Shown here: one piece after another, positions 30,001 through 44,715 of the stretch
Numbering within the stretch: the first letter of the stretch is position 1
Layout of the letters: each line of letters begins with the position of its first letter
Source: an uncultured Gemmatimonadales bacterium
Lineage (GTDB): Bacteria; Gemmatimonadota; Gemmatimonadetes; Gemmatimonadales; GWC2-71-9
Reading direction: 5' to 3'
Assembly: GCA_963779755.1 (NCBI GenBank)
Contig: CAVZZO010000003.1
Location: forward strand, 1 to 64,000
DNA: 64,000 bases
Program-made: the position numbers and the translations under genes
The notes under the pieces: generated by a model
Told to the model about the DNA's origin: nothing
What the model saw: the letters and a program-made list of their open reading frames with translations, nothing else
The model's database searches: none

Positions 30001-30074
30001 TTCCCGCTCGGGCCGCTGTCGGGGGGGGGGCGCCAGGCTGGCCCCATGGAGATGGTCAATCAAGGAGTAAGCCA

Positions 30075-30242
30075 ATGCCACCAGAGGGACGGGCCGACAC
30101 CAATACCGCGGACCAGGGCCGTGCGCAGCTGGAAGTGGAGGATAACGGGCGCTGGTTTACCGTCGCGGCCACGGTGCTCGCCGCCGTCTTCCTCGCGGCA
30201 ATCGCTGCGGTGGTCCATTCGCTCATCGCCACGTTCCGCTAG
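30075..30242 (+). CDS. Small single-TM protein (55 aa)
   Basis: AAGGAG RBS; MPPEGRAD...WFTVAATVLAAVFLAAIAAVVHSLIATFR*. Confidence 0.6.
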   Translation: MPPEGRADTNTADQGRAQLEVEDNGRWFTVAATVLAAVFLAAIAAVVHSLIATFR

Positions 30243-30396
30243 CCGGGGACCGGCCGGGCCTCCGTCTTCGCCCACCAGGCCCGCCGACCTAGCCGGTTGA
30301 GGATCCCGGCCACGGCCGGCAACGCGGAACCTGTCACTCCCGGAATCGCCCTGCGCTGAGACCCCATTGTCGGCGGGCTGAGACTTTATCGCGCCT

Positions 30397-30678
30397 TCAT
30401 CCTTTCCTCGCGCCGGGCGGCCCCGCGAGCGCGGAGGGGAGGACGAAGCTCACGCTGATCCGGGAGCCGCGAGGTGCGTCCACCGTGAACTCGCCGCTTC
30501 GGGTGGGATCGCCGGGCGGGACGGCCACAGGCACGCCGGCGATCACCAGGCCGAAAGCCAGGTCCCGAACGCCTGCCACCTGGACCTGGGCCCGCGCGCT
30601 GGCGGGTCGGAGCAGGACCAGCAGAATGAGCAGGAAAACCGGCGGCGTGGGCCGCCGGCGTCGGGCGGGTGAGGACAC
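30397..30678 (-). pseudogene. Truncated paralog of the 26918-27394 secreted protein
   Basis: RAQVQVAGVRDLAFGLVIAGVP...SRISVSF.LP..L.GPPGA nearly identical, then stops (RKG*); C-terminal half missing. Confidence 0.75.
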
Positions 30679-30857
30679 GCCCGGAAGATGCCCCGGTTCG
30701 CGCGGGTGGTCAAACATTGGCCGCCGTCTTCCGCCGGACCTTCATCTCACCTTCACATCCTCCTGTTGTACGCGTCGCCATACTGGGCCATTCGCATCGG
30801 GGGCCGGGGCGCAGGTCCACAGATCCCTCTCCCTCGGCGAGACATCCGGAGGGCATC

Positions 30858-31643
30858 ATGCGCACACCCGGGCTGGTTCTCGCGGCGGTTCTGCTGCCGG
30901 CCGCGCTGCATGCCGATGGCAGGACCTTCACATTCAACAACTACTGCTCGACCGGAAGCCTGGTGAGCTGCGCCAGCGTGAGCGTGACGATTATCCCGCG
31001 AGCAGGCGGCGGCACCTATGTCATGCTGGGCATCCAGAATCTTCAGGGAACCAACCCGTTCGACAACAACCCCGGGAGTCTGATTACCGGCATCGGGATC
31101 AGCTTCCCGTCCTATCAGGGTGGCGATTGGTACGGAACCGACGATGAGGACGGAATGAATTACTACGGGACTCCCGGACGGAACGTTAATACGCTGTTCG
31201 GGACGGATCCCGCAGGCGACCACGGCGCGGTCTTTGACGGGTACTGGTGGCCGAGCGGGGTGATGTGGAACGTGTATGGCGCGGAGGGCGGGACCGGGAT
31301 TGTCGGTTGTGATCCGCCGCCGTCCGACACCTACGATGTGGTCTTCCAGACCTGTCCCCGGCTGGGCGCGCCCGGCGCGATGGTATTCAGCTTTGAACCG
31401 CCCGTCGAGAATTGGCCCTATGGGCCGGAAATACCTCCACCAACAGCCTACAACTGGGCCGGCGAGGATTTCGCGGTCGGGTGGGGCGGCTGTGGCATCA
31501 CCGCCAATGGGAAGACTGGAGCCGTCATCAGCTCGAACTGTGTCCAGATGACGGCAACGCCGGAACCGGTTACTCTGATCCTGACGGGCACCGGCCTGGC
31601 CGCGCTGGGGATCGTCCGGAGGCGTCGGCGACTCCGCACCTGA
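30858..31643 (+). CDS. PEP-CTERM sorting domain protein
   Basis: GGAGG RBS; signal peptide; C-terminus TPEPVTLILTGTGLAALGIVRRRRR. Confidence 0.92.
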   Translation: MRTPGLVLAAVLLPAALHADGRTFTFNNYCSTGSLVSCASVSVTIIPRAGGGTYVMLGIQNLQGTNPFDNNPGSLITGIGISFPSYQGGDWYGTDDEDGMNYYGTPGRNVNTLFGTDPAGDHGAVFDGYWWPSGVMWNVYGAEGGTGIVGCDPPPSDTYDVVFQTCPRLGAPGAMVFSFEPPVENWPYGPEIPPPTAYNWAGEDFAVGWGGCGITANGKTGAVISSNCVQMTATPEPVTLILTGTGLAALGIVRRRRRLRT

Positions 31644-31737
31644 GTCGCCAGCCATATATCGCCGCCGGCCGGAACGCTCCGCTCAGGGTTCCGGCCATTT
31701 GCGTCAGGGTATGCAGGCAGCCACTTTCAGACGGCCG

Positions 31738-31746
31738 TGCTACTTT
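31738..31746 (+). promoter_or_regulatory. Putative extended -10 of the original tRNA-Arg promoter
   Basis: TGcTACTTT, 16 nt before the tRNA 5' fragment. Confidence 0.4.
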
Positions 31747-31758
31747 TCAGCCCAGCAG

Positions 31759-31802
31759 TCCCGCGCCCGTAGCTCAGTTGGATAGAGCATCGGCCTTCTA
31801 AG
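31759..31802 (+). repeat. Left att site: 44-bp direct repeat = 4 nt leader + 5' half of tRNA-Arg(TCT)
   Basis: TCCCGCGCCCGTAGCTCAGTTGGATAGAGCATCGGCCTTCTAAG, identical to 41603-41646; no T-arm follows. Confidence 0.95.
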
Positions 31803-31839
31803 GGGACTGGCCAGCGCGGGTCAGCGCCGACGGGCGCAG

Positions 31840-31917
31840 AATCAAGGACTTAGGGCCCCGGACGCTGGCTCGCGCCAGTCCGCCGGGGCCCGTTTGACAC
31901 CACGGCTGGCACCACGG
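31840..31917. promoter_or_regulatory. att arm: IHF consensus and tandem putative integrase arm sites
   Basis: AATCAAGGACTTA (31840-31852) fits WATCAANNNNTTR; TGACACCACGG 31895-31905 and TGGCACCACGG 31907-31917; TGACACCACG recurs at 41569-41578. Confidence 0.65.
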
Positions 31918-31951
31918 GAGCGGCGCGAGTTTCCTGGGCGACTTCAGCCGT

Positions 31952-32170
31952 TCACTCGCCCTGGCTCAGGATCCATTGCCGGACGGGCTCCGCGAGCCGA
32001 CAGAGGTCGGCCCAATCGCCTTCCTTGACCCGCCGACGCATCAGCATAATGTCGCCCCGGCCCATGCCCTCCATGACCACGTGGGCGGGCGGGCTCCAGG
32101 TCAGCCGCTCGAGGGCGCACTGGACCGCCTCATCGTCGGGCCACAGCTGCCCGGCCAGCTCCTGAAACAT
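31952..32170 (-). CDS. Small hypothetical protein, last gene of the element's leftward operon
   Basis: MFQELAGQLWPDD...WILSQGE; follows the tape-measure-like gene; start uncertain. Confidence 0.45.
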   Translation of the reverse strand: MFQELAGQLWPDDEAVQCALERLTWSPPAHVVMEGMGRGDIMLMRRRVKEGDWADLCRLAEPVRQWILSQGE

Positions 32171-32192
32171 GGCGATGAGATCGGCATCCGGC

Positions 32193-33671
32193 TTATCGGT
32201 CGACGACAAGTGTGTACTCCCGTGTGCTGTCCAGCTCGCGCAGCATCCGCACGAACTCGTCGCGCTGGCGAGGGTCGCTGGTGTTGATGATGCCGCCCCC
32301 GTGAATATGAACCACCGCCGTTCCTTGCCGCGACCCGCCCACGGCGGCCGACTGCTGGTTGCTGAGGCCCGTCCCCGTCCCGGCATTCCACCCGCTGGGC
32401 TCCCGGAAGGCACCGGCGCTGGCGGTCCCGCGCCCGGCACCGCCCAACTGCTGCGCGATCCCGCCCAGGGCCGCCCCCAGCGCTACCAGGAGGGCGCCGG
32501 CGGCGATGGCCGTGACGGGGTTGAGCGGGTTCGCCAGCGCCAATTTCAGGGCAATCCCGTAACTGATCAGCGTCTCGCCCATCTGGGTCATGATGCTGCC
32601 GAGGCTGGCGAAGATCGTGGCCCCGAACGCCTTGAACACCCCGACCACCCCCTCGCCGGAGAAGGCCGCCGAGATGGTGTTGTAAACGACATCAGAGAGC
32701 GCCTGGGCTAGCCCGGCGTTGAAGGTCTCCCGCATCGACTGCTCCAGCGCCTGGGAGGCCGCCAGGGAGATCCCGAAGACCTGCTGGTAGAGCTGTTCCG
32801 TCGCCTTCGTCAGTTGGTCGGTGGTCGGGAGCAGGGAGCCGAGGAGTGGGCCAATGTCCGCAGGGACCCCGGGCCGCTGCGGCATGTGGACCTGGGTGAT
32901 CCCCAGATACAGGGCATCGCCGGCGCTTTGAGAAAGCGCCTGGATGCGCTTCATGAGCGCTGGACTGATTTCCCCGCCGATATTGGGGTCGCCGAAGACG
33001 GCCGTTTCCAGTTTGGTCTGACCGGCCTTTGCCTGCTTGGTGGCGGCCGGGGGCGGGAACCGGGTCAACATCTGGCCGGTCAACTCGTTGAGCGCGCGCT
33101 CATAACGCGCGGCCCGCGCACGGAGATCGGCCAACTCCTGGTCGGAGAACGGCTGGAACTTTGTGACCGTTCCCTGCTGGGCCGTCGTGATGGTGACGGT
33201 GCGCCCGCCAGCGGCCAGCTGGGCCTTCACCGCCTTGGCCTGCTTGGCTATGTCATCGAAATTCTGCGCGATGTCGATCCCGAGTCGCGCATCGGCTGCC
33301 TTGTTCAGGGACTCGACCAGTTTGTCCGTTTCCTCCCGCGCCTTGATGATCTCCGGCTGGAAATGTTTCCAGACGGCGGTCAGGACGGCGACACCGGCCG
33401 CGACCCCAAGCACCAGAGTCGAGCCGCCGGCGAACAGGAGCAGCCCTTCGGCCAGTTTCGACTGGGCCCCCGTCAGGCCAATCGCTTCACGGGCCAGCCC
33501 TTCAAACCCGAACTTGAGTTTGGTGGCGCCTTCCAGGCTGAACCGGCCGAAGGCCGCGTCGGTCTCCCCCGCCACGACCGCCGTTTTCCGCATACTCGCC
33601 TGCACCTGGTCCGCGACACGCGAGGCCAGGTCCTGGGCGGTATAGGTGACGCTGACATCGTTCTGCGGCAT
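32193..33671 (-). CDS. Tape-measure-like protein (492 aa)
   Basis: AAGGAG RBS; N-terminal TAQDLAS; Ala/Gly-rich amphipathic helices; two hydrophobic regions; NPVTAIAAGALLVALGAAL; Gly/Ser linker; terminal beta-strand domain. Confidence 0.6.
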   Translation of the reverse strand: MPQNDVSVTYTAQDLASRVADQVQASMRKTAVVAGETDAAFGRFSLEGATKLKFGFEGLAREAIGLTGAQSKLAEGLLLFAGGSTLVLGVAAGVAVLTAVWKHFQPEIIKAREETDKLVESLNKAADARLGIDIAQNFDDIAKQAKAVKAQLAAGGRTVTITTAQQGTVTKFQPFSDQELADLRARAARYERALNELTGQMLTRFPPPAATKQAKAGQTKLETAVFGDPNIGGEISPALMKRIQALSQSAGDALYLGITQVHMPQRPGVPADIGPLLGSLLPTTDQLTKATEQLYQQVFGISLAASQALEQSMRETFNAGLAQALSDVVYNTISAAFSGEGVVGVFKAFGATIFASLGSIMTQMGETLISYGIALKLALANPLNPVTAIAAGALLVALGAALGGIAQQLGGAGRGTASAGAFREPSGWNAGTGTGLSNQQSAAVGGSRQGTAVVHIHGGGIINTSDPRQRDEFVRMLRELDSTREYTLVVDR

Positions 33672-33796
33672 GCGTGGGCTCCTTCAGCCCGGGCCCGCGG
33701 GGGGAGGGTGGCCCGTCGCGTCCGTCCCTTCGCGATGTGGCCCTGGCGGTGAGGAGAAATCCTGAGGAGCTGGACCGGACGGCACCGCCTGAGATT

Positions 33797-35591
33797 CTAC
33801 GTCAGGGCATCCGCCGTGTAGGCGAAGGCCTTGGGCAGCCGGATGCCCACGTCGACCATCGCATGCACGATGATGCGGATCATCTCTGGTCGGCGTGGGT
33901 GTACGGATCGACCGTGAGATCGATGGCGCTGCCGAACTCTCCGATCAGGATCTGGCTCAGTTCCCGAAGAAGATTTCGTGACAGATCGTGGTCGAGGTGC
34001 TCTTGGTGAGGTTGGACCTGGCCTGGTTGCTGACGACGGCCGCATAGCCGTTCATGCGGTTGTCGTTCTCCCAGATGAACAGGCTGCCGCTGGCGGTGCT
34101 GCGCAAAGTTTGCTTCATGGCGGAGCGGATGCCCGGGGTGGTCAGGAAGGCCATAGTCCCGATATCGCCGTTGGCGGCGGCGATCTGGATCTCATAGTTC
34201 ACGATGTTTGCCCAGCTCGGCACCGCGCCGTCGGCCCCCATCGTCACGGCGATGACCCGGTCTGACTGGCCACGCCCTTGGGCTGGTTCGCGCGCCGGTG
34301 CCAGAGAGGGCGGCCAGGTCGATCCCTTCGGCCGCCACGGACATCAAGTCGTTGATGATCAACTGATCGATGGATGGGTAGAACTGAATGAACGTCTGCT
34401 TGGAATAGCGCGCTGCACTCATGGCGGTTTTGGGGCTGAGCGTGACGTTGTCGAACGTGGCCGCTATCAGTGAGATGGGATGGACGGATTTTCGCCGACC
34501 CAGCTGAACGTGTTGGTAGTGATCTGCCGGGGATACTGAGGTTGTTGCGGAGGCCGGTGAGCACGGTGGCGCCGAGCTGGCGCTCACCATCGGTTGCGCA
34601 GGATCTCGATCAGTCGGCCAGCACGTTCGTCTGCACGCCCGCGCCGCCCAGCGAGCTGGTGCCGGCCACGTTGCCGATCACGGCGGCCCGGACCGAGGTT
34701 GAGCGGCATGTAGAAGCGATCGGCGCCGACTCGGCCCTGCTGGCTAAGGATGGTTTCGCGCACTCGCGCTCGAAGCCGGCGTGGCGCCAGTGCCCGTCGC
34801 CGGGCCATGAGCGCCCGGCTGATGGAGTAGTGCCGTTGCTTGCGGGGGGAGAAATCGACGTGGCCGCCGGCCGCAGTTGAGTGGCTCCGATCGCGTCCGC
34901 TCCATGCCCGGCGCACCTCGGCTCGATCTCCTCGACGCTGGATGCCGCTGAGCCAGGCAGGGAGATCGGCCTCCCGCTGCGAGACCGAGGCGATGAATGC
35001 CAGCCTCGGCAGCGTTCGCGTAGGGATTCTCGCCCACAAATCCACGCCCTTCACTGGACCCGCTCATGATGGCCTCGTTTCGTGTGAGACTGCGCCCGAC
35101 ACCGACGCTATCATCGGCCGGGATTGGAACGCTGGAGACCTCCAACGGCGTCCATGCGTAAACGGAGTGGGAATGCCGTCCGGGCCCTCGACGGTGGTAT
35201 AAGTCGCCGGTGGATAGCCCACCGAGACTTTCTTGCGTATGCCGTCCCGCATGTCCGTCGCGACCCAACTCGAATCGGGGTGAGTCGCCCAGCGCAGGAT
35301 GCCTCGGAACTTGCGATCCATTTCGAGGGTGATGTTCTCGATGAAACCGAACTGCGTCGCGAGTTGTGATTCAACAGGAAGGGGAAGCCGTCGCTGGCGC
35401 GGCTCAAATTGATGTCGGCGGGATTGTGAGAGAGAACTTCTGGTAGATACGGCCGGTGGCCCAGTCCGGCGCTCGACCGGCGTCTCGCTCGAGAAGGCAA
35501 TGTCAAGCGAATTGTCGCGGCGGCCTCGCGCGTCGGTTACGAGCTCGACCGCACGGAGCGGATCGCCGGCGCCCGCGTGCTTTGCGGCCAC
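33797..35591 (-). pseudogene. HK97-type prohead protease + major capsid protein (probably one fused ORF), frameshifted in this assembly
   Basis: Stitched frames: IAFSSETPVER, EVLSH, PFLLNHN, KVSVGY, WTPLEVSSVPIPADDSVGVGRS; then YSISRAL, LIEILRN, TFDNVTLSPKT, GIDLAALSGTG, NQPKG, GYAAVVSNQ, IFFGN, VDPYT, DVGIRLPKAF. Confidence 0.85.
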
Positions 35592-35689
35592 TCGCCCTCC
35601 TCAGGTAGTTTCCACCGTTTGCCTGAAATACCGCGCCGCGGCGAATTGGTGCAACGGTTTTATTGAGGCTTTTTTCAGCCGGAATCCCC

Positions 35690-36036
35690 GGATTCGGGCG
35701 GTGTTTCTCCGGTATTTGGCTCTGGGAGCCGCGCAACGCTTGACCCGTCAGGTTCTGGCGCAATTCGGCCTGGTCGAACGCCTGGACCAGGGAGGCGGCC
35801 ACGGCCGCCCGGGCCGGCTCGCCCTGGTGCGCCGCGGCGCGGCTTCGCCTGCAGCTCACGCCGGAGGTGTAGGCGGCCGCCAGCGAGCGCGAGCGCGCGC
35901 TGGGCGAACGCGAACATCTCGGGATACTCCTGCAGGAAACTGGCGTGTTGCTCCAGGCTTGGGTCAATACACCGCCGGGGGGCACTGCGGGCGAGCCGTT
36001 GTCGTTGAACTCCAGGTCGCGCGATGCGTACTCATG
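35690..36036 (-). pseudogene. Fragmented hypothetical gene between endonuclease and protease
   Basis: GGAGG RBS and ATG near 36035; plausible peptide segments alternate between frames; limits approximate. Confidence 0.35.
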
Positions 36037-36039
36037 GCT

Positions 36040-36367
36040 CCCCTCCAAGGCGCGTTGAATGAGCCGGATGGTCGGAAGGTGCAGAGGTCGCTCGGGATGA
36101 CCCGGAGCAGCCGCCAGCCATAGCAGGCCAGGGTGTTGTACTTCTCGAGGTCGTTCAGAAACCCGGTGATGCTCACGTGACGGCCCCGCCGGCGGCCCCC
36201 GTCCCGCTGGCGTGAGGCGAACACGCCGCCCTCCACCTCCAGGGCGAGCCGGTGCGCCGGCCAGGCGTAATCCAGCCGCCAGCGCCGCGACGAGTGAAGC
36301 GGTACTCGCGCTGGGGCGCGGGTAGGCCCTGAGTCACGCAGAGGGGGCCGAACAGCGGGTCCGTCAT
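36040..36367 (-). pseudogene. Phage Vsr/DUF559-like (PD-D/ExK) endonuclease with a frameshift near 36295
   Basis: EYRF|..RRWRLDYAWPAHRLALEVEGG...GRH...GFLNDLEKYN...GWRLLRV; adding one C (TTC[C]AC) joins the frames; 3' end approximate. Confidence 0.75.
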
Positions 36368-36377
36368 GGCTCCTCCC

Positions 36378-36572
36378 TCACGGTTCCCACCGGGGAGGCG
36401 GGTTGGCCGGGCGGCCCGTCCGGCAACAGTTGGGGCAGCGCCGGGTGTTCCGGTTACGCGGGGTGAACTCCTGCGAGCAGGCCTGGCACAGGCGGGGGCG
36501 ACGGCCCATCCGCAGGCTGGCGGCCCTGGCCCGGTCCCGCGCAGCCGCGCTCACGCCTCCGGCCAGGGTCAA
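36378..36572 (-). CDS. Small zinc-finger protein
   Basis: CQAC-x13-CPNC; basic. Confidence 0.5.
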   Translation of the reverse strand: MTLAGGVSAAARDRARAASLRMGRRPRLCQACSQEFTPRNRNTRRCPNCCRTGRPANPPPRWEP

Positions 36573-36802
36573 CTCCCATATCGCTGGCTCGGTGGGCCTG
36601 TCCCACTGTGCGAGCTGAGCGCCATGAGCAAGCCGGCTTCCAGCGCTTCCGCCAACATTCCGACATACTCTCCGAGGCCGCGGTAGAGGACCATGGGTTC
36701 CGGATGACCCGGCTTGACGGCGACCAGGTCGCCCGGCAGGGCATGTAGAGCAGGGATGGCATGGAGCACGCGGAAGACCGTCGTCCCACTCTCGTTTGTC
36801 AT
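36569..36802 (-). CDS. Hypothetical protein, first gene of the putative late operon
   Basis: GGGAGG RBS, ATG at 36802; preceded by an AT-richer intergenic gap. Confidence 0.55.
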   Translation of the reverse strand: MTNESGTTVFRVLHAIPALHALPGDLVAVKPGHPEPMVLYRGLGEYVGMLAEALEAGLLMALSSHSGTGPPSQRYGS

Positions 36803-36976
36803 TGCCAGCCTCCCGATTTGCAGGGCAAAGTGTCCACTATTTGGAACAGGAAGTCGCATGCTGAAAACTCAGCGCTAGTGAATGATCGGGCGCTTCAGCG
36901 ACCCCCGGCCACCCCCCGTCAGGAGGACCCGAACACCTATATGACAACGTGTTAGCGAATTGCGATGCGAACCTGC

Positions 36977-37282
36977 TCATCGGGACCGCCAGGCGCTGAG
37001 GTCGGCCGCCCCACCGCGAGCCGCCTCCTGAAAGGCTTTGAGGCCAGCCGGCGGGACGCGCCACTCCCGGTTGTGCAACCGATAGGCGCCCGGGAAGCGG
37101 CTCTCGGCGCACCAGGAGCGGATGGTGCTGGCTTTCCGGCCGAGCCGGGCGGCTATCTCGGGGCAGGTGAGGTCGCCCTGGACCTGTGCGGGCTGGGCGA
37201 CGTCGTTCTCCAGCCAGCTGCGGGGAACGCTCACCAGGTCGGACGTGGTGGAGTCCAGGTAGGCGCGGAGGTGCGGGTTCAT
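36977..37282 (-). CDS. Helix-turn-helix DNA-binding protein (HTH_17/MerR-like)
   Basis: LTCPEIAARLGRKASTIRSWC...FPGAYR...WRVP; ATGA-coupled to the helicase gene. Confidence 0.75.
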   Translation of the reverse strand: MNPHLRAYLDSTTSDLVSVPRSWLENDVAQPAQVQGDLTCPEIAARLGRKASTIRSWCAESRFPGAYRLHNREWRVPPAGLKAFQEAARGGAADLSAWRSR

Positions 37283-38562
37283 GGGGCCGCCTCCCATGCG
37301 TCTCCGCGGTCCGCAGACTGAACCTTCGGCAGGGTTGAACCCTGCCCGGCTGCTGAATCCGGTTCGGGTCTCCCCTTTACACTTTCAGTGTAAAGGGGAG
37401 TTGAACCCTGAACCTTGGGATTCCACGGTTCACCTGAACCCTCGCTGAACCTTGGCCGAACGCTTGAACCTTCGGGGCTCGGGAGGGCGGCGGCGATGCC
37501 CGGGCCGGTGATCCGATAGGGGCCGGCGCCGGTCCGGCCGGAGCCATCGGACCCGACGTAGCCAAGGTCCAGGAGCCGGCGCCGTGCCTTGCTCAGGCTG
37601 CCTTTGCTGATTTCGGCGACCTCGGCCCACCGGCTCCAGGTCAGGGCCTCGTCGTTGTGGCGATACAGCGCGGCGAGGGCGGCCCGTTCGCTCGGCGTAA
37701 GGTTCGTGGGATCCGGGACGGTCCAGTCGCCCGGAGGCCGGACCAGGGTAAGCCGGGCCGAGTGCCACGTCCCCCCGGCGGCGTCGATCTCGTACCGGAT
37801 CTCACGCGGGGCCGGGCGCTCGGCCCGGGATAGCTTCTCCGTCGTGAGCCACAGCGCCCCATCTCGCGTCTCGGTGGTGAAGACCCCGCGTGCGGCCGCT
37901 GCCCAGGCGGACGCGCCCCGCACCTGGTCGAGTCGGCCGCGTCCGTCTTTCGGCTTTCCGAAGTGGGCACAGGTGAGCGTGGCGCAGCCTAGAGCCGTCA
38001 ACTGCCGCCAGAACTGCACCACCGGACGCGCCTCGGTGTTGGAATCCTCGTTCCCGCCCAGCATTTCCGCTAGCGGATCAAAAACGCACAGGCGAGCCCC
38101 CAGACGCTGGATTTCCGCGCGCAGGTGGAGCTGCCACCGCAGATCGTCGAGCCGGCACCCCGCCAGGGCCAACAGGTGTAGCCGGCTGAGGACGCGCTCG
38201 CGCTCCCATCCGTGGCCCTGAATGAGTGCCGCCACCCGGTTCTGGATGACCGATTGCCCGTCTTCTTCACTCACGATGAGGACCGGGGCCGCCGCGGCAA
38301 CGGCGAAACCGTCCAGTACGGCATAGCCGCCGGCGAGCGCTGCCGCGGTCGCGAGCGCAAGGGTGGTCTTGTACCCCCCGGTCGGGCCCGAGAGCACGGT
38401 CGGTTCATCGGCCAAGAGGAAACCATCCACCAGCCATGCGATGGGCTCGGGGTCCCCGGCGTTCAGCAAACACACCGAGGCCGGGAGCGCGCCGGAGTCC
38501 TCTCCATTGGCCGATGTGCGCTCGACAAGGAACTCCGCGGCCAGAAGGTCGGCGCCCGTCAT
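37279..38562 (-). CDS. RepA/AAA_25-type replicative helicase with C-terminal wHTH
   Basis: WLVDGFL, Walker A GPTGGYKT, SEED, Walker B VFDP, ED.N, H..K, RGASAW; C-terminal ISKGSLSKARRRLLDLGYV. Confidence 0.85.
   Translation of the reverse strand: MTGADLLAAEFLVERTSANGEDSGALPASVCLLNAGDPEPIAWLVDGFLLADEPTVLSGPTGGYKTTLALATAAALAGGYAVLDGFAVAAAAPVLIVSEEDGQSVIQNRVAALIQGHGWERERVLSRLHLLALAGCRLDDLRWQLHLRAEIQRLGARLCVFDPLAEMLGGNEDSNTEARPVVQFWRQLTALGCATLTCAHFGKPKDGRGRLDQVRGASAWAAAARGVFTTETRDGALWLTTEKLSRAERPAPREIRYEIDAAGGTWHSARLTLVRPPGDWTVPDPTNLTPSERAALAALYRHNDEALTWSRWAEVAEISKGSLSKARRRLLDLGYVGSDGSGRTGAGPYRITGPGIAAALPSPEGSSVRPRFSEGSGEPWNPKVQGSTPLYTESVKGRPEPDSAAGQGSTLPKVQSADRGDAWEAAP
37319..37470. repeat. Iteron cluster + 14-bp inverted repeat (putative replication origin)
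   Basis: Seven direct TGAACC and one inverted copy; CTCCCCTTTACACT-ttc-AGTGTAAAGGGGAG at 37370-37400. Confidence 0.75.
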
Positions 38563-38957
38563 GCGTCCCGCTCCTGAATAGCACGCCAGGTCGTGTCGGC
38601 CCGGCGCGAGTTCCATTCCCGGGCCGGGATCCGGACCAGCCGACGCGCGAGGTTTGCCAGGTCCGGGGCGGTGGTGGCCTGCTGCAGGATCTGTTCGGCC
38701 ACCTGCACCCGGCGCTCGTGTTCGCTGAATCCCTCCAGCTGCTCCCAGGAACCCGCCGCGAGGTTGGGAAGTCGAGAGTACTCACCTTCGAGCAGCGCGG
38801 CGGACCAGCAGGCGAGCCACCAGAGCCGATCGCGCTTCCCCGGCGCGGTACGCTCCCGAGCATGCCACCGGGCGAGAATGGCCCGCGCGAGGTGCGCAGG
38901 AGCCTCCTGCTTCTTCCCCGTCCGTGGCCGGTGGCGTGTCGCGATTTGTGGAGGCAT
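38559..38957 (-). CDS. Hypothetical protein
   Basis: 132-aa ORF with ATGA overlap to the helicase start. Confidence 0.55.
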   Translation of the reverse strand: MPPQIATRHRPRTGKKQEAPAHLARAILARWHARERTAPGKRDRLWWLACWSAALLEGEYSRLPNLAAGSWEQLEGFSEHERRVQVAEQILQQATTAPDLANLARRLVRIPAREWNSRRADTTWRAIQERDA

Positions 38958-38966
38958 CGCCGGGGC

Positions 38967-39326
38967 TCAGCCGCGCCCGCCGGCCGCATCCGCGTCGGCG
39001 AGCTTGTGTAGGGCACTGACGTGAATGACGAGCTGCCCGAGGAATTCAACCGGCAGCAGCCAGCCGCCGCCGGTCGGGCGGAAGGCGTCGGAGGAAAACT
39101 CCTGGGGCGACTTCCGCCACAATCGCGCATCGAGAGCCCGCTGCTCCGGAAACCTCGGGTTGGGTATGATGACCAGCCGAAGCTCAAGATCCTCGGTCAG
39201 CGCGATGCGCTTGCGAAGGCCCGGCTCCAGCGGCGAGTAGAACTCCCGCAGCAGCTCACGCGCTTCGCGGTCGCCCGCTGACCCCTGGCCCGCCCCCCGG
39301 GCGGCTCGGTCCTGCCGGGCGGTCAT
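38967..39326 (-). CDS. PC4/YdbC-like ssDNA-binding protein (putative)
   Basis: LDARLW...FRPTGGGWLLPVEFL resembles the PC4 D.R.W...PT.KG..L motif; ATGA-coupled to the Xis-like gene. Confidence 0.5.
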   Translation of the reverse strand: MTARQDRAARGAGQGSAGDREARELLREFYSPLEPGLRKRIALTEDLELRLVIIPNPRFPEQRALDARLWRKSPQEFSSDAFRPTGGGWLLPVEFLGQLVIHVSALHKLADADAAGGRG

Positions 39327-39514
39327 GAGGCCGGAGCTCCTTCCCGCTCTCGCTCTACTCGCCGCAATGACGCGAGGGCCACCGTCCACCGCCCCTCCCG
39401 CCGCTCGCCCTCCAGTCGACCCGTGAGCACCCACCGATGCGCGGTGTGATACGGCACGCGCAATCGGGCTGCTGCTTCCACCAGCGTCACCGTTTCCGTC
39501 ATTCCAGTTTCCAT
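39323..39514 (-). CDS. Excisionase-like HTH protein
   Basis: TLVEAAARLRVPYHTAHRWVLTGRLEG.R..GRW.V; divergent from the repressor. Confidence 0.75.
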   Translation of the reverse strand: METGMTETVTLVEAAARLRVPYHTAHRWVLTGRLEGERREGRWTVALASLRRVEREREGAPAS

Positions 39515-39532
39515 CTTGCGCCCCCAGGAGAG

Positions 39533-39552
39533 TCCTTGTAGTGTTACAAGGA
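39533..39552. promoter_or_regulatory. Putative repressor operator in the divergent switch region
   Basis: Perfect inverted repeat TCCTTGTA-gtgt-TACAAGGA. Confidence 0.65.
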
Positions 39553-39612
39553 ACAAACAACAACTTAGGCCCTCACCCGGGCGGGCAAAAGACCCCGGAG
39601 CACAGACTCGTA

Positions 39613-40311
39613 ATGGCAACAAGGAAACGGCGGACGAGGTACGGACGGGAGCGCGTCCCGGTTGTGGCGGACCGGCTCAATGCCGCGATCCGTTTACGGG
39701 GGCTCAGCGTCAACGGGCTGGCGAAGGCGGCCGGGATTCAGCAAGCTACGGTCGACCTCGTTGTGCGCGGCGTCTCCCGCAAGACTCAAGAGGACCGGCT
39801 CGCCCGGATTGCGGACGTGCTCCAGGTTCCCTTTGAATGGCTCACCGGGGAGTGGCGGTTGCTTCCCCATGCGTTCTACCCCAAGGACGTTGTTGACGGG
39901 CAGAAAGAGCCGACACTGCCCTCGCTGGAACAACTGGTCGAGCACGACTTCAATAGCCGCTGTGCCGGAGCGGTCGCGCGAGACTGGCCAAAGGATGACC
40001 AGGCTTGGTTGCTCGAAGCAGTCCTCCAAACGCTGATTGCCCCTGGTAGCTGGCGCCACCTGTTAGTCAGATCCCGTCCAAACCCGACTCCGCGTGTTCG
40101 CCGACGACCCTCCGCAGAGGAAGTCAGTCGCCTGAATCAGGAGGCTGCAGAGCGAGAACGCCAAGCAATGATGTGCCTGTCGAAGGCGTTCCAGATCATC
40201 CTCGGCCCATGGCTCAAGGGGGATGCCGCGTTGGACGTGCGGGCTCTTCAACGTCTCAAAAATCGTCAGACTTCGCCGAGCCGAACACCAGAACCAAAGG
40301 AGCAACGATGA
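39613..40311 (+). CDS. XRE/CI-like repressor (N-terminal HTH, non-peptidase C-terminal domain)
   Basis: RLNAAIRLRGLSVNGLAKAAGIQQATV...LARIADVLQVPFEWLTGE. Confidence 0.85.
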   Translation: MATRKRRTRYGRERVPVVADRLNAAIRLRGLSVNGLAKAAGIQQATVDLVVRGVSRKTQEDRLARIADVLQVPFEWLTGEWRLLPHAFYPKDVVDGQKEPTLPSLEQLVEHDFNSRCAGAVARDWPKDDQAWLLEAVLQTLIAPGSWRHLLVRSRPNPTPRVRRRPSAEEVSRLNQEAAERERQAMMCLSKAFQIILGPWLKGDAALDVRALQRLKNRQTSPSRTPEPKEQR

Positions 40312-41597
40312 AACGCAAAGGTCGCATCTACTGGCGCGTCCGGGGCGGCGAGCGGCGGGCCTATGCGGACTTCCGCGACTTCGCGGACGTGGGCGGAGGA
40401 CGAGAAGCACTGCGGCCGGCGGGGGCCGCGCTCGCCACCAACGACCCCGCGGTCGCCCGCGTGCTGGCGGATCGGCGCCTTGCCGAGCTCCAGGCCCTCC
40501 GCCGTCAGCGCGCCGTCCTGGGGGAGGGGCGCGCCTCGGCCACCCTGGGGGCCTACGCCAGCCGTCACCTCGTCCTCAAGAAGGAGTCCGCACGGTTCAC
40601 GGACGGCACGATTGCCGCCGCCGAGCACTACCTCGAGCGCGCGGTCGCCTACTTCGGCGCCTCGCGCGCCCTCATGAGTCTCACCGTGGCGGACGTGCAG
40701 GGGTGGATTGAACACCTCAAGCGGTCGCACCCGGGGCGGGGCAGAGGCAAGCGCAACCTCTCCGGCGGGACGCTGCGCCACCACATCAACGCTCTCTCCA
40801 ACCTCTACGAGCGGGCGAAATCCGAAAACCTCGTGGTCGGCTCCTACAACCCGGTCGCCAATATCCTCCGGGGCGAGAAGCCGACGGGACGGCGAGCGGA
40901 AGCCCGCTGGCTCGAAGTCCACGAGACGGCGCTCTTACTGGAAGCGGCCCGGCGGGTCGATCCCCGGCGCCCGGAGACGTGCCGCTGCCTGCACGTGCTG
41001 CTCGCCACCATGGCGCTCACCGGCGGGCGGAAGTCGGAAGTTCTCGGCCTCACGGGAGACGACGTGAGCCTCGAGCGCAAGACGGTGACGTTCCGCCCCA
41101 ATGACTGGCGCCGCCTCAAGACGGCCACGAGCTGGCGCACGGTGCCGCTCTGGGCCCAACTCGAAGCCATCCTCGGCCCCTATCTGGTGCCGGTGGACCG
41201 GACGCCCCGCACCGGCCTTCTGTTTCCCACGATCGACCGGAACGGGCGCACCGTCCCGCTCGTGGATTTCCGGAAGGCGTTGGATACCGTGGCCGTTGCC
41301 GCCGGCTGGAAGGCGGGTGAGATTACCACCAAGATGCTCCGCCATACCTACTGCGCTGCGCGGATTCAGACGCTGGATCGCGGGGCCCCGGTGAGCCTCT
41401 ACACCGTCGCCAAGGAGATGGGGCATGGCGGGGATGCGCTGGTGAAACGCATCTACGGCCACCTGGGGCAGGTGCGCCACCGGGCCGAGGTGGTCGAGTA
41501 CCGGATCGAGCAGCACCTCCCGGCCCTCCGGGAGCGGATGGAAGGGCTGCCGTGGTGCCAACCGTTCTTGACACCACGAGACGCCGAAGTCGTGTAA
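40308..41597 (+). CDS. int: Tyrosine recombinase/integrase
   Basis: AAAGGAG RBS; TGGRKSE, RLKT, KMLRHTY, MGH, IYGH catalytic set; stop 5 bp before the att core. Confidence 0.95.
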   Translation: MKRKGRIYWRVRGGERRAYADFRDFADVGGGREALRPAGAALATNDPAVARVLADRRLAELQALRRQRAVLGEGRASATLGAYASRHLVLKKESARFTDGTIAAAEHYLERAVAYFGASRALMSLTVADVQGWIEHLKRSHPGRGRGKRNLSGGTLRHHINALSNLYERAKSENLVVGSYNPVANILRGEKPTGRRAEARWLEVHETALLLEAARRVDPRRPETCRCLHVLLATMALTGGRKSEVLGLTGDDVSLERKTVTFRPNDWRRLKTATSWRTVPLWAQLEAILGPYLVPVDRTPRTGLLFPTIDRNGRTVPLVDFRKALDTVAVAAGWKAGEITTKMLRHTYCAARIQTLDRGAPVSLYTVAKEMGHGGDALVKRIYGHLGQVRHRAEVVEYRIEQHLPALRERMEGLPWCQPFLTPRDAEVV

Positions 41598-41606
41598 GTT
41601 GTTCCC

Positions 41607-41680
41607 GCGCCCGTAGCTCAGTTGGATAGAGCATCGGCCTTCTAAGCCGAGGGTCGCAGGTTCGAATCCTGCCGGGCGCA
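41607..41680 (+). tRNA. tRNA-Arg (TCT), intact copy overlapping the right att site
   Basis: GCGCCCG/CGGGCGC acceptor stem; TCGGC-CTTCTAA-GCCGA anticodon arm; GGTTCGAATCC. Confidence 0.96.
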
Positions 41681-41930
41681 TCCGCCGTTTCCCCCTCCCT
41701 GAATCCAATCCAGGATGGTCGCATCAGCCCGCCAGCGCGTGCAGGATACGTCACACTGACCAGAAAATCCTGTTGTTTTTAATACAGCTGCACGGCCCGG
41801 GCGCTCCCGTGCGACCTTCCCGGCGTGAATCTCATCCAGATTGTAGGGGTCATTCCTGTCTGGTATCGGCGTAACCCCGGCATCATCGTTGAATGTCGTT
41901 TTTGGGACTGTTCAAACCGGAGGAACTCCG

Positions 41931-42272
41931 ATGTGCCAGCAGTGCCGCGGCGCCGTGGAGGAATCGCTCATCGAGGCCAGCCGCGATCCCCATCTGATCG
42001 CCCTGGTCCTGGCCGGGCATACGGAAGCCAAGTGGTTTCGCGAGCATCTGCGGCTTGCCATCCTCGAACTGCGGACCGAAGAACGCACCCCCGCCGACCT
42101 GGCTGCCCGGCTGGCGGAGCTGGGCAAGGAATGTCCCGCCGTCAGCGGTCATTGCGGAAAACTCCTGCAGCAGGCAGGCACCATGGCCGAGCAGTGGTGC
42201 AGTGAAGCACTGCCCTCCCTGCGGCCCGAGCGGGGTCCCGCCCCCTATCCCGGCCGGGCCCGGGCCCGCTGA
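41931..42272 (+). CDS. Hypothetical protein with N-terminal CxxC
   Basis: GGAGGA RBS; MCQQC... Confidence 0.65.
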   Translation: MCQQCRGAVEESLIEASRDPHLIALVLAGHTEAKWFREHLRLAILELRTEERTPADLAARLAELGKECPAVSGHCGKLLQQAGTMAEQWCSEALPSLRPERGPAPYPGRARAR

Positions 42273-42423
42273 GCCCGGGACAGTTCGTCTCCCGGGCGCA
42301 GGATTGTCCCGGGCATCCTGTCCTCCCCCGGCGCGCTGCGCCCGTTTCCCCAGGTAATCCCGCCCGATGCCGCGGCGGGATTCTTGCATTTTTGCCTCGG
42401 GACCCTATCAGGAAGAATGCGGC

Positions 42424-42642
42424 ATGTTGGAGAATATCGGATTCAGCGAGCTGCTGATGATCGGGGTGGTGGTGATGCTGCTCTTCGGCGCCCGCCGCCT
42501 TCCCGAGATCGGGCAGTCACTGGGGCAGGGGATCCGCGAGTTCAAGCGCAGCCTCTCGGGGGTCGACGATCCCCCGGCCCAGCCGCCGGGCCCATTGCCC
42601 CCGCCTGTGGAGTCCGAGCCTCGGCGGCTGGGTCAGGCCTAA
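42424..42642 (+). CDS. tatA: Twin-arginine translocase TatA/TatE
   Basis: IGFSELL...LLFGARRLPEIGQSLGQGIREFK. Confidence 0.93.
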   Translation: MLENIGFSELLMIGVVVMLLFGARRLPEIGQSLGQGIREFKRSLSGVDDPPAQPPGPLPPPVESEPRRLGQA

Positions 42643-44180
42643 TCGGCCATCATGGGAGCCTCGGTCGTGACGGCTCTCCGGCTCAGGAACAAGGCCAGCG
42701 GTACCGCCAGGACGAAGAGAATCGCCACCAGGGCAAACACGTGGTTGTAGGCCAGAATCGCCGCCTGCCGCATGAGCTTGAGGTCCAGCAGTTCCAGCGC
42801 GCGATGCCGGGCGGCGTTGAGGTCGGCCAGGGTGCGCGACATTCCGCCGGTGGCGCCCCGCAGGAAGCGCCGCACCACCGGCCGTGACAGAGTAAGATGC
42901 GTGTCCAGCACCGCCCGGTAGCGCGACGTCCCCACCGTGAGCTGCGTCGCCGCAATGGCAATGCCCACGCTGCCGAAGACTTGCCGCACCACGTTATAGA
43001 GGCCCGTGGCCGCCGTCATCTTCGGCTTGGGGATGTTGGCCAGCGCCGCAGTGCTGAGCGCCACGAAAATGAGGCTGAAGCCCACTCCCTGCCACACCTG
43101 CGGCCAGAAGATGTCCCAGAACCCCACGTCGGTGGTGAGATGGGCCAGCTCCCAGAATGAAAAGGCGCTCACCATTAGCCCCACCGCCACCAGCAGTCGC
43201 GGCCCCAGCCGGTTGTAGAACCGGCCGCTGATCGGCATGATCACCGCCATGGCCAGGCTGCGGGGCATGAGCGCCAGCCCGGAGAGAAACGCCGTGTAGC
43301 CCAGCAGATTCTGCAGCAGCAGCGGCAGCAGAAAGAGCGTGCCGTAGAGGCCCATGCCCAGTACGCCGCCCAGCGAGGTGGCCGAGGTGAAGGAGCCGTC
43401 CTTCAGAATGCGCAGGTCCACCGCTGGTCGTCGAACCCGCAGTTCCCGCCAGACGAAAAGGGCCATGCCCACCGCCGCCAGAATGGCGAGCCGCACAATG
43501 AACCCCGACGAAAACCAGTCCTCGCGCTCGCCCTGCTCCAGCATGAGCTGCAGCGAGCCCAGCCCCAGGGCCATGAACCCCAGGCCCAGCCAGTCGATCA
43601 TGCCGGTATCGCGCTCGAGATAGTGCGGATCCTCGATGAACCGGCTGACCAGCGCCAGGTTCAGCAGCCCGATCGGGACATTGATGAAGAAGATCCAGGG
43701 CCAACTGTAGTGGTCGGTGAGCCAGCCGCCCAGGGTGGGGCCGAACGCGGGCGCCAGCACCACGCCCATGCCGTAGATCCCCATGGCCATGCCCTGTTCC
43801 TCGGCTGGGAAGGTCTCCCGCAGAATTGCCTGAGGGACGGTGATGAGCACGCCGCCGCCGATCCCCTGCAGCACCCGGAAGACGATCATCAGTTCCAGGG
43901 AGCGGGCCAGGCCGCAGGCCATCGAGGCGAGGGTGAAGGCCAGGACGCTCAGCATGAACAGCCGCTTCCGGCCGATCCGTCCTGCCACCAGCGCCACCAG
44001 GGGCATGGTGATGACGTTGGCCAGGAGGTATCCGCTCACCACCCAGGTGATCTGCTCGACACTGGCGCCCAGCGTTCCCTGCATATCGGGCAGGGCGACG
44101 TTCACGATGCTGGAGTCCAGGACTGCCATCACCGTGCCGGTGAGGACCGTGCCGGTCACCACCCATTTGTTCGTCTGCAT
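42639..44180 (-). CDS. DHA2 (EmrB/QacA) MFS efflux permease
   Basis: LDSSIVNVALP, RVLQGIGGG, GPTLGGWLT..YSWPWIFFINVPIG. Confidence 0.93.
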   Translation of the reverse strand: MQTNKWVVTGTVLTGTVMAVLDSSIVNVALPDMQGTLGASVEQITWVVSGYLLANVITMPLVALVAGRIGRKRLFMLSVLAFTLASMACGLARSLELMIVFRVLQGIGGGVLITVPQAILRETFPAEEQGMAMGIYGMGVVLAPAFGPTLGGWLTDHYSWPWIFFINVPIGLLNLALVSRFIEDPHYLERDTGMIDWLGLGFMALGLGSLQLMLEQGEREDWFSSGFIVRLAILAAVGMALFVWRELRVRRPAVDLRILKDGSFTSATSLGGVLGMGLYGTLFLLPLLLQNLLGYTAFLSGLALMPRSLAMAVIMPISGRFYNRLGPRLLVAVGLMVSAFSFWELAHLTTDVGFWDIFWPQVWQGVGFSLIFVALSTAALANIPKPKMTAATGLYNVVRQVFGSVGIAIAATQLTVGTSRYRAVLDTHLTLSRPVVRRFLRGATGGMSRTLADLNAARHRALELLDLKLMRQAAILAYNHVFALVAILFVLAVPLALFLSRRAVTTEAPMMAD

Positions 44181-44648: not shown

Positions 44649-44715
44649 GGGCGGTAGAGTCGGGAAGGGCGGGAGTCACCCGCGACCGACCTGACCGCCC
44701 TGACCGCCTTTCGCC

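What the first reader, a model, noticed from the sequence alone, without database searches (positions are those of the whole stretch)
31759..41680. Integration duplicates the 5' half of tRNA-Arg, separating the intact gene from its native promoter
Seen: the 44-bp repeat covers 4 nt of leader and the tRNA from its 5' end through the anticodon loop. The left copy is an orphan 5' half. The intact tRNA lies at the right end, starting 9 bp after the integrase stop. Known: most tRNA-targeting elements duplicate the 3' part, so the intact gene keeps its promoter. Inference: tRNA-Arg(UCU), which reads rare AGA codons, must now be transcribed by read-through from the repressor-int operon or from an element promoter. 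The old promoter would fire a tRNA half into the element, antisense to its structural genes.
Basis: partly seen in the sequence, partly recalled or inferred. Interest (0 to 1): 0.75.

Follow-up and report, generated by a model that had tools for sequence, protein, structure and literature searches.

The report
Reversed-polarity mobile element in tRNA-Arg gene
A 9.8-kb integrase-bearing mobile element sits in the only tRNA-Arg(UCU) gene of a Gemmatimonadota bacterium in the rare "reversed" way, bringing its own front half of the tRNA and stranding the host's front half and promoter; the layout is real, already documented elsewhere, and common among this integrase's relatives.

Summary
A perfect 44-bp direct repeat (31759-31802 / 41603-41646) covers 4 leader bases plus bases 1-40 of tRNA-Arg(TCT). 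The intact gene (41607-41680) starts 9 bp after the integrase stop codon and is the only Arg-TCT gene in the genome. Relatives keep an uninterrupted tRNA-Arg(TCT) between homologues of both window flanks.

The layout is not a one-off. A 57%-identical integrase in another genome bounds a ~10-kb island with the same 44-nt 5'-half repeat. Of 38 integrase homologues with a nearby tRNA gene, 14 are co-directional (5' type) and 24 convergent (3' type).

5' fragments end at tRNA positions 37-41 and 3' fragments start at 30-33, so the shared crossover is the anticodon loop.

5'-type elements carry a conserved -10-like TAAGTY box upstream of the rebuilt tRNA (12 of 17). They also carry a terminator-like hairpin after the stranded half (8 of 9; degenerate in this window).

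Reversed polarity is rare but in print: 159 of 3919 Islander islands, and Zhao & Williams 2002. This scan has met it before on other DNA.

How the tRNA is transcribed here, by an element promoter or by integrase read-through, is inferred and not shown.

Verdict: new member of a known kind, moderate interest.

The parts
31741..31746 (+). TACTTT, -10-like box of the presumed native tRNA-Arg promoter, 16 nt upstream of the stranded 5' half
   Evidence: Read. TAnnTT boxes end 5-20 nt upstream of 16 of 58 tRNA genes of this genome, against 7 of 2000 random places. 31748-31802 matches the native locus of G017 at 91%.
31759..31802 (+). attL core: left copy of the 44-bp repeat, made of 4 nt of leader plus the stranded 5' half of tRNA-Arg(TCT) (bases 1-40 at 31763-31802)
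31804..31893 (+). Structured GC-rich segment just inside the element. It holds a degenerate copy of the hairpin that follows the core in relatives, then a strong compound hairpin (about 31853-31893) followed by GTTTG.
   Evidence: Fold (-73.9 kcal/mol, z -2.24). Alignment to L026. Hairpin survey.
31895..31915 (+). Two direct copies of TGRCACCAC (31895-31903 and 31907-31915): candidate arm-type integrase sites at the left end
   Evidence: 5 matches in the window against 1.24 expected, 0 of 100 shuffles reach 5, and 4 of the 5 lie at the element ends. The sites are conserved in L026 and other 5'-type loci.
32193..33671 (-). 492-aa ORF of unknown function, with a weak match to phage family phrog_30292
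   Evidence: E 2.3e-5. No Pfam family at E <= 0.01.
33957..35591 (-). Prohead protease / major capsid gene (HK97-like, phrog_617) broken over two frames and by an in-frame stop; looks like a pseudogene
   Evidence: phrog_617 pieces at 35064-35591, 34192-34590 and 33957-34247; weak PF05065 match. Three-frame read.
36977..37297 (-). HTH_17 (excisionase / AlpA-like) DNA-binding protein
   Evidence: PF12728, 1.2e-7. (phrog_66). Homologues lie next to the integrase in L026, L029 and L030.
37279..38616 (-). AAA_25 (RepA / primase-helicase-like) replication protein with a MarR-like winged helix
   Evidence: PF13481, 9.9e-30. (phrog_906, 1.7e-16).
39323..39622 (-). Second small HTH_17 / excisionase-like ORF, divergent from the repressor-int operon
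   Evidence: PF12728, 3.7e-5, below the curated cut-off. (phrog_2907).
39541..40311 (+). HTH_3 (cI/Cro-type) repressor-like ORF. Its stop overlaps the integrase start (ATGA at 40308-40311). The true start is probably later than 39541.
   Evidence: PF01381, 6.2e-7. (phrog_2328, 3.3e-10)..
40308..41597 (+). Tyrosine integrase, 429 aa counted from the ATG at 40308
   Evidence: PF00589, 1.9e-9. (phrog_1, 1.8e-36). Residues invariant across 8 family members (R241, K271, R345, H373, Y383) are all retained.
41552..41577 (.). Inverted pair of TGRCACCAC motifs (41552-41560 on the - strand, 41569-41577 on the + strand) inside the integrase 3' end: candidate arm-type sites at the right end
   Evidence: Conserved in relatives.
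41595..41600 (+). TAAGTT, a conserved -10-like box 6 nt upstream of the rebuilt tRNA. Its TAA doubles as the integrase stop codon.
   Evidence: TAAGTY lies within 30 nt upstream of the tRNA in 12 of 17 5'-type loci. In L073, L071, L085, L111 and L117 the integrase stop lies upstream of the box, so the box is non-coding there. The box appears in 4 of 24 3'-type junctions.
41603..41646 (+). attR core: right copy of the 44-bp repeat
41607..41680 (+). Intact tRNA-Arg(TCT), the only one in the genome. The 5' half is presumably element-derived and the 3' half host-derived.

Best explanation
A 9.8-kb integrative element (31803-41602) was inserted by its own tyrosine integrase into the anticodon loop of the chromosome's single tRNA-Arg(UCU) gene, in reversed polarity. 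The element carries an integrase, a cI-like repressor, Xis-like HTH proteins, an AAA_25 replication protein and decayed HK97-type head genes.

Its attP carries tRNA bases 1-40 instead of the usual 3' half, preceded by a short leader and a -10-like TAAGTT box. Integration therefore rebuilds a whole tRNA gene at the integrase-proximal junction from an element 5' half and the host 3' half. The host's own promoter and 5' half are left stranded 9.8 kb upstream.

Shown here: the repeat, the gene map, the single-copy status, the flank synteny, and the recurrence of this polarity and of its associated signals across the integrase clade.

Inferred: that the crossover lies in the anticodon loop; that the rebuilt gene is driven by the element's box, possibly together with read-through from the repressor-int operon and RNase P trimming; and that the hairpins behind the stranded half limit transcription from the old promoter into the element.
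For: Repeat and tRNA:
- Searches show the repeat and the tRNA.
- One search shows this is the only Arg-TCT gene among 58 tRNA genes.

Element genes:
- Searches give the gene content.

Synteny:
- In G016 and G015 an uninterrupted tRNA-Arg(TCT) lies between a homologue of window 26.0-26.7 kb (with tRNA-Pro(TGG) further upstream) and colinear homologues of window 44755-50250.
- In the window both the stranded half and the intact gene lie between those markers.

Same architecture elsewhere:
- L026/L073 has a 57%-identical integrase, then tRNA-Arg(TCT), with a 44-nt 5'-half repeat about 10 kb upstream.
- Its cargo differs: a relaxase, RCC1-repeat proteins and a Gp49/HTH pair.

Survey:
- 65 integrase hits in 61 loci.
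- 14 co-directional with a tRNA gene <=700 nt downstream; a 5' fragment was found in 6, plus 1 partial.
- 24 convergent; a 3' fragment was found in 7.
- 21 with no tRNA nearby, and 6 lacking the integrase C-terminus.
- 5' fragments end at tRNA positions 37-41 and 3' fragments start at 30-33.

Signals:
- TAAGTY box in 12 of 17 5'-type loci.
- Native tRNA genes of this genome have TAnnTT boxes 8-20 nt upstream.
- Hairpin plus T tail after 8 of 9 stranded halves, after 17 of 24 rebuilt 3' ends in 3'-type loci, and in 21 of 300 random 80-mers.
- Arm-type repeats are enriched at both element ends.
Against: - No nucleotide-level empty site, no reads, and no excised form could be examined.
- The consensus sigma-70 scan found no promoter upstream of either copy.
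- In this window TAAGTT sits only 6 nt from the mature 5' end, closer than in any other tRNA gene of the genome (8-20 nt).
- The only good -35 (TTGACA, 41568-41573) is 21 nt away and is more probably part of an arm-type site.
- TAAGTT overlaps the integrase stop codon here, so part of its conservation in this copy could be coding.
- The perfect repeat does not itself locate the crossover.
- The window's first hairpin after the stranded half is degenerate.
- The head genes are broken, so the element may no longer be a working phage or satellite.
- The tree is a quick one with SH-aLRT support only; the careful search did not finish.
Confidence: 0.8

Rival explanations
1. The architecture is the same, but the rebuilt tRNA has no promoter of its own. 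It is made only as the 3' tail of the repressor-integrase transcript and released by RNase P, so supply of tRNA-Arg(UCU) follows expression of the element's lysogeny operon.
For: Only 9 nt and no terminator-like site lie between the integrase stop and the tRNA. The repressor and integrase ORFs overlap by ATGA. No consensus promoter was found. In this copy TAAGTT lies unusually close to the tRNA. AGA is rare, at 0.94 per 1000 codons, so little tRNA may be needed.
Against: The TAAGTY box is conserved in 12 of 17 5'-type loci at 5-18 nt from the tRNA. It is conserved even where the integrase stops 40 nt upstream and the box is non-coding. The box fits the TAnnTT class seen upstream of native tRNA genes. 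Integrase genes of integrated elements are usually kept low (general knowledge).
Confidence: 0.25
2. The left copy is not an integration scar. It would be a chance or segmental duplication, or an assembly artefact, and the integrase merely lies next to a normal tRNA gene.
For: No reads or empty site could be examined.
Against: The repeat is a perfect 44 nt that ends at the anticodon loop. The identical geometry occurs in G157 and, with other tRNAs, in L105, L111, L117, L119 and L128. Conserved arm-type repeats lie inside both ends. The flanks are syntenic with one locus in relatives.
Confidence: 0.03
3. The element carries a complete tRNA-Arg gene of its own and inactivated the host copy, as in 'tRNA-dependent lysogeny'. 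On this reading the right-hand tRNA is wholly element DNA.
For: The integrase and the tRNA are adjacent and co-directional. Phages that disrupt a host tRNA and bring a replacement are described in PMC10865867; I saw only its abstract in the listing.
Against: No stranded 3' half follows the intact gene: in G000 the tRNA query matched only 31759-31802 besides itself and other tRNA species. In relatives the identity block stops at the anticodon loop in both polarities.
Confidence: 0.04

Closest known systems
tRNA-gene islands with a displaced 5' tDNA fragment ('reversed target orientation': Zhao & Williams 2002, J Bacteriol 184:859; 159 of 3919 islands in Islander, PMC4383910)
   Same: A tyrosine integrase inside the island. 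A full tDNA plus a cognate end fragment in direct orientation. The fragment is the 5' end and lies upstream. The site is centred on the anticodon. Size is within 2-200 kb.
   Different: The host phylum is Gemmatimonadota. In this integrase clade the reversed polarity is not a rarity: 14 of the 38 members with a nearby tRNA gene. I could not read the 2002 paper (not held), so I cannot compare promoters with it. For Islander I read passages and Table 1. PMC6563490 (passages) states that 5'-distal recombination is 'considerably less frequent'.
Canonical anticodon-loop (3'-type) tRNA-integrating elements, including members of this same integrase clade (for example G026/L093 at tRNA-Arg(TCT))
   Same: Homologous integrase (53% identity). 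Same target tRNA. The identity block includes the anticodon loop. The integrase 3' end abuts the core. Arm-type direct repeats lie between the integrase and the core.
   Different: The 3' type carries tRNA positions 30-33 to the 3' end plus a terminator-like hairpin, and leaves the host promoter in charge. The window's element carries positions 1-40 plus a -10-like box and displaces the host promoter.
Small phage-related islands or satellites (PICI-like) and defective prophages
   Same: About 10 kb, with an integrase, a cI-like repressor, Xis-like HTH proteins, a replication AAA protein and HK97-type protease/capsid homology.
   Different: The capsid/protease gene is broken over frames. No terminase or portal was recognised. 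No helper is known. Membership was not established. Comparison with PICIs rests on recalled knowledge, not on a call.

Membership tests
Islander-type tDNA genomic island with a 5' fragment (reversed polarity) | A tyrosine integrase gene inside the candidate island | tested here: met
   PF00589 at 1.9e-9 and 38 bits, above the 27.1 cut-off. phrog_1 at 1.8e-36. Residues invariant in the family are retained.
Islander-type tDNA genomic island with a 5' fragment (reversed polarity) | A full tDNA and a cognate tDNA end fragment in the same orientation bound the island; a 5' fragment must lie upstream of the tDNA | tested here: met
   44-nt repeat on the + strand; the fragment covers tRNA bases 1-40 and lies 9.8 kb upstream. 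The filter definitions were read in PMC4383910.
Islander-type tDNA genomic island with a 5' fragment (reversed polarity) | Length of 2-200 kb, and the fragment does not overlap a conserved protein domain | tested here: met
   Spacing is 9844 bp. No Pfam domain covers 31759-31802 among the ORFs scanned.
Islander-type tDNA genomic island with a 5' fragment (reversed polarity) | Crossover centred on the anticodon loop (site class A) | tested here: inconclusive
   The repeat ends 1 nt past the loop. Across the clade, 5' blocks end at positions 37-41 and 3' blocks start at 30-33. The actual strand-exchange site cannot be read from a perfect repeat.
Islander-type tDNA genomic island with a 5' fragment (reversed polarity) | An empty site (uninterrupted tDNA with the same flanks) in relatives | tested here: inconclusive
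   Gene-order synteny with G016 and G015 supports one ancestral locus. Extra DNA lies on both sides (26.7-31.7 kb and 41.7-44.7 kb). No nucleotide-level empty site was found.
Islander-type tDNA genomic island with a 5' fragment (reversed polarity) | The element supplies the promoter of the rebuilt tDNA | tested here: inconclusive
   Conserved TAAGTY box of the TAnnTT class, but the consensus scan found none and no RNA data exist.
Active integrative element (excision and integration) | attP and attB junctions detectable; integrase activity | not testable with these tools
   No runs were listed.
Phage satellite (PICI-like) or functional prophage | Intact packaging or head genes, or hijacking genes, and dependence on a helper | tested here: not met
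   The protease/capsid homology is split over two frames with an in-frame stop. No terminase or portal family was found.

The most novel reading that the evidence does not exclude
Within one Gemmatimonadota integrase clade, attP has been turned round as a complete expression cassette. 3'-type members bring 'tRNA 3' half + terminator'. A nested subclade brings 'promoter box + tRNA 5' half + terminator'. That subclade has since spread to at least nine tRNA species with unrelated cargo (phage-like, relaxase-bearing, stress genes). If so, the element takes over transcription of the host's only AGA-decoding tRNA while integrated, and the cell's supply of that tRNA comes under element control.
Probability: 0.4. 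Interest if true: 0.55.

Novelty: new member of a known kind. Interest (0 to 1): 0.35.

Why it matters
Island finders and textbook accounts assume that the 3' part of a tRNA gene is the part replaced, so the host promoter stays in charge. Here a whole integrase clade of a poorly studied soil and water phylum uses both polarities at the same anticodon-loop site. That makes it a natural system for asking what sets integration polarity and which expression signals an attP must carry.

For this genome it means the sole tRNA-Arg(UCU) gene is probably transcribed from element DNA. For annotation it means 5' half-tRNA scars should be searched for as island borders in this phylum. It is not a new principle: reversed polarity has been in print since 2002, and earlier reports of this scan found it on other DNA.

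Tried and rejected
- Sequencing runs: none was listed for 31700-41690 and no RNA holder was listed, so junction reads, excision joints and expression could not be examined.
- Exact-pattern scans of metagenome contigs with the left junction flank and the right flank found no match.
- The integrase found no relative in viral contigs, so no free attP form was recovered.
- DNA-level flank searches in 40 relatives matched only the tRNA itself, because there is no close relative.
- The sigma-70 / terminator consensus scans found nothing useful at either junction.
- TTGACA at 41568 was considered as a -35. I rejected it as the main reading because its spacer to TAAGTT is 21 nt here and 31 nt in L026. 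The motif also recurs as tandem or inverted TGRCACCAC copies at both element ends, which looks like arm-type sites.
- My first crude terminator rule flagged only 7 of 24 3'-type loci. A hairpin finder that allows one mismatch gave 17 of 24. Its control used 80-nt pieces, whereas the 5'-type set was scanned over 110 nt, so the two numbers are not strictly comparable.
- The careful tree search did not finish; only the quick tree is used.
- Zhao & Williams 2002 and Williams 2002 are not held. I know them only through citations and recall.
- The capsid gene was not followed further.
Full report
**Observation**

The repeat finder returns one outstanding direct repeat in 30000-43500: 44 nt, 100% identical, at 31759-31802 and 41603-41646. 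ARAGORN places tRNA-Arg(TCT) at 41607-41680 on the + strand, and Rfam agrees (77.4 bits). Reading the sequence, the repeat is TCCC plus tRNA bases 1-40, so it runs through the anticodon loop and one base more. After it, the left copy continues into unrelated DNA and the right copy into the rest of the tRNA. The integrase ORF ends with TAA at 41595-41597, 9 nt before the tRNA.

**The element**

Between the repeats lie the following genes:
- An HTH_3 repressor-like ORF whose stop overlaps the start of a 429-aa tyrosine integrase (ATGA at 40308-40311).
- Two small HTH_17 (excisionase-like) ORFs.
- An AAA_25 replication protein.
- Several ORFs without family matches.
- Pieces of an HK97-type prohead protease/major capsid gene (phrog_617).

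The capsid pieces are spread over two frames and interrupted by an in-frame stop, while the integrase and the AAA_25 gene are intact. That suggests decay of the head genes rather than general sequencing error. In an alignment with seven relatives, the integrase keeps the residues that are invariant in the family: R241, K271, R345, H373 and Y383. Their assignment to catalytic roles is from my recall of tyrosine recombinases.

Copies of TGRCACCAC lie just inside both ends: two direct copies at 31895-31915 and an inverted pair at 41552-41577. There are 5 in the whole window against 1.24 expected, and no shuffle reaches 5. They are conserved in relatives. I read them as arm-type integrase sites.

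**Host and importance of the tRNA**

Titles of related contigs place the genome in Gemmatimonadota/Gemmatimonadales. The assembly (4.23 Mb, 4 contigs, 68.5% G+C) has 58 tRNA genes and only this one with anticodon TCT. AGA makes up 0.94 codons per 1000 and 1% of Arg codons, but occurs in 417 of 1488 long high-GC3 ORFs. The tRNA is therefore needed, probably at a low level.

**Is the left copy the old gene start?**

There is no close relative, so DNA searches in 40 relatives matched only the tRNA itself. The match of G017, however, extends 11 nt upstream of the repeat (31748-31802, 91%), and that of G016 extends 5 nt upstream.

Gene order is more informative:
- In G016 (L075), an uninterrupted tRNA-Arg(TCT) is directly preceded by a homologue of window 26.0-26.7 kb, with tRNA-Pro(TGG) further upstream.
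- It is directly followed by colinear homologues of window 44755-50250 (MatE and following genes).
- G015 (L078) shows the same order.
- In the window, tRNA-Pro(TGG) is at 25829, and both the stranded half and the intact gene lie between these markers.

This supports one ancestral locus split by the insertion. It is not a base-level empty site, and about 5 kb (26.7-31.7 kb) and 3 kb (41.7-44.7 kb) of other lineage-specific DNA also lie in between.

**Recurrence**

A scan of one genome per species found 12 loci with relatives of the integrase.
- In L026 (the same place as G157/L073; integrase 57% identical), tRNA-Arg(TCT) follows the integrase by 47 nt on the same strand. A 44-nt copy of 3 leader bases plus tRNA bases 1-41 lies about 10 kb upstream.
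- The L026 cargo is unrelated: a MobA/VirD2 relaxase, RCC1-repeat proteins and a Gp49/HTH pair.
- L028, L030 and L032 show remnants of 5'-type and 3'-type elements on the two sides of a single tRNA gene.

**Survey**

Searching 400 Gemmatimonadota genomes gave matches at E <= 1e-40 in 52 of 401 genomes, with G000 and two unpublished genomes counted. I fetched all 61 places outside the unpublished genomes and classified 65 integrase hits:

| Class | Hits | tRNA fragment found |
|---|---|---|
| tRNA <=700 nt after the integrase 3' end, same strand (5' geometry) | 14 | 5' half at the far side in 6, plus 1 partial |
| tRNA <=700 nt after the integrase 3' end, opposite strand (3' geometry) | 24 | 3' half in 7 |
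| No tRNA within 700 nt | 21 | none sought |
| Hit lacks the integrase C-terminus | 6 | none sought |

Many contigs end before the far border could be seen. No locus gave a fragment of the 'wrong' kind.

The 5' fragments end at tRNA positions 37-41 and the 3' fragments begin at 30-33. The only part common to both is the anticodon loop, which I take as the crossover region (inference). The 5' geometry occurs at Arg-TCT, Thr-CGT, Ile-GAT, Val-CAC, Ala-TGC, Asp-GTC, Pro-TGG and Lys-TTT, and as a remnant at Arg-CCG.

In a quick ML tree of 41 full-length integrases, the nine 5'-geometry rows need 3 changes (shuffled mean 8.2; 0 of 500 shuffles as low). A single origin is not excluded by well-supported branches, and these rows sit inside a group that also holds 3'-type members. 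The careful search did not finish. The 41 rows are the near-full-length hits; I left out the partial or truncated hits.

**Expression signals**

Upstream of the rebuilt tRNA, 12 of 17 5'-type loci (14 survey loci, the window, L028 and L032) have TAAGTY ending 5-18 nt before the mature 5' end. L126 and L128 carry a TAGACT or TAGATT hexamer at a similar place.
- In L073, L071, L085, L111 and L117 the integrase stops 40 nt upstream, so the box is non-coding there.
- In the window, L098, L109 and L119 its TAA is the integrase stop.
- The box is seen, on either strand, in 4 of 24 3'-type junctions.

In this genome, a TAnnTT hexamer ends 5-20 nt upstream of 16 of 58 tRNA genes, against 7 of 2000 random places (examples). 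The box therefore belongs to the local -10 class. In the window, however, it sits 6 nt from the tRNA, closer than at any other tRNA gene (8-20 nt), and no acceptable -35 lies at 15-19 nt. The consensus scan reports no promoter. An element promoter is thus plausible but unproven here, and read-through from the repressor-int operon followed by RNase P cleavage remains a live alternative.

On the other side, the stranded half has a TACTTT box 16 nt upstream, within the native range. In relatives, the stranded half is followed at once by a GC-rich hairpin and a T-run on the tRNA strand. This holds for 8 of 9 by a fixed rule, against 21 of 300 random 80-mers. The same rule finds 17 of 24 hairpin-plus-T sites just after the rebuilt 3' end in 3'-type loci. 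The 5'-type set was scanned over 110 nt and the control over 80 nt.

The picture is symmetrical. 3'-type attP sites bring a 3' half plus a terminator. 5'-type attP sites bring a -10-like box plus a 5' half, and a terminator that ends up capping the stranded host half. The window is the one exception. Its copy of that hairpin is degenerate (alignment to L026), though a strong compound hairpin followed by GTTTG lies at about 31853-31893.

**What is known**

Islander's Table 1 lists 3760 islands with a 3' fragment and 159 with a 5' fragment, out of 3919 (PMC4383910; passages and table read). [quoted passage not shown] The 2002 paper itself is not held.

Earlier reports of this scan describe the same polarity on other DNA, including one that also found it common among the island's integrase relatives. 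The present case is thus a new member of a documented kind. What it adds:
- the phylum;
- the high share of reversed members in one clade (14 of the 38 with a nearby tRNA gene, against about 4% in Islander);
- the paired promoter-box/terminator logic.

**Verdict**

Novelty is a new member of a known kind, and interest is moderate (0.35).

Noticed in passing
window 31763-31838 (+): Rfam's tRNA model matches the stranded half plus the next 36 nt over the full model length, at 31.4 bits (gathering score 29). After a 26-nt insertion comes GCCGA CGGGCGCA, which equals the 3' strands of the anticodon and acceptor stems with the T arm missing. ARAGORN does not call it. It could be chance remodelling of the hairpin seen in relatives, or a relic of a whole tRNA copy once carried in attP.
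   Followed up: partly
window 33957-35591 (-): The HK97-type prohead protease/capsid homology (phrog_617) is spread over two reading frames, with several shifts and an in-frame stop near 35064. The neighbouring integrase and AAA_25 genes are intact, so the head genes look decayed.
   Followed up: partly
L028 11347-11421 with 5889-5954 and 18062-18104; L032 10325-10399; L030 5255-6453: Single tRNA genes (Arg-CCG, Ile-GAT, Arg-TCT) flanked on one side by a 3'-type element or remnant and on the other by a 5'-type remnant of the same integrase family. Both polarities have therefore used the same gene.
   Followed up: partly
L111 about 7006-7065, L117 about 10383-10442, L105 about 10372-10431: The stranded 5' halves in these loci are themselves preceded by an integrase 3'-end scrap and a TAAGTY box rather than by a native promoter. 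This suggests stacked or successive 5'-type insertions.
   Followed up: no
L029 8587-9846: A cluster of ten tRNA genes lies directly upstream of an integrase homologue (55% identity) in a Gemmatimonadota MAG. Whether this is an element-borne tRNA array or a host cluster used as a target was not examined.
   Followed up: no
window 26700-31650 and 41681-44750: Extra DNA relative to G016 and G015 on both sides of the split tRNA locus: PEP-CTERM-type protein genes with an 89%-identical internal repeat (27129-27314 against 30410-30595) on the left, and small ORFs plus an MFS transporter (42639-44276, -) on the right. No integrase or tRNA fragment was seen there.
   Followed up: no
G000 contig C4 2520-2614 and window 5596-5690: tRNA-SeC appears twice with identical 70-nt upstream sequence, on C3 and on the 33-kb contig C4. 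This is probably an assembly overlap or a duplicated segment.
   Followed up: no
G000, upstream of many tRNA genes: Several tRNA promoters are preceded by T/C-rich 'TTCCC'-type repeats (for example upstream of Lys-TTT, Ser-TGA, Gln-TTG and Ala-TGC). This may be a lineage-specific upstream element.
   Followed up: no
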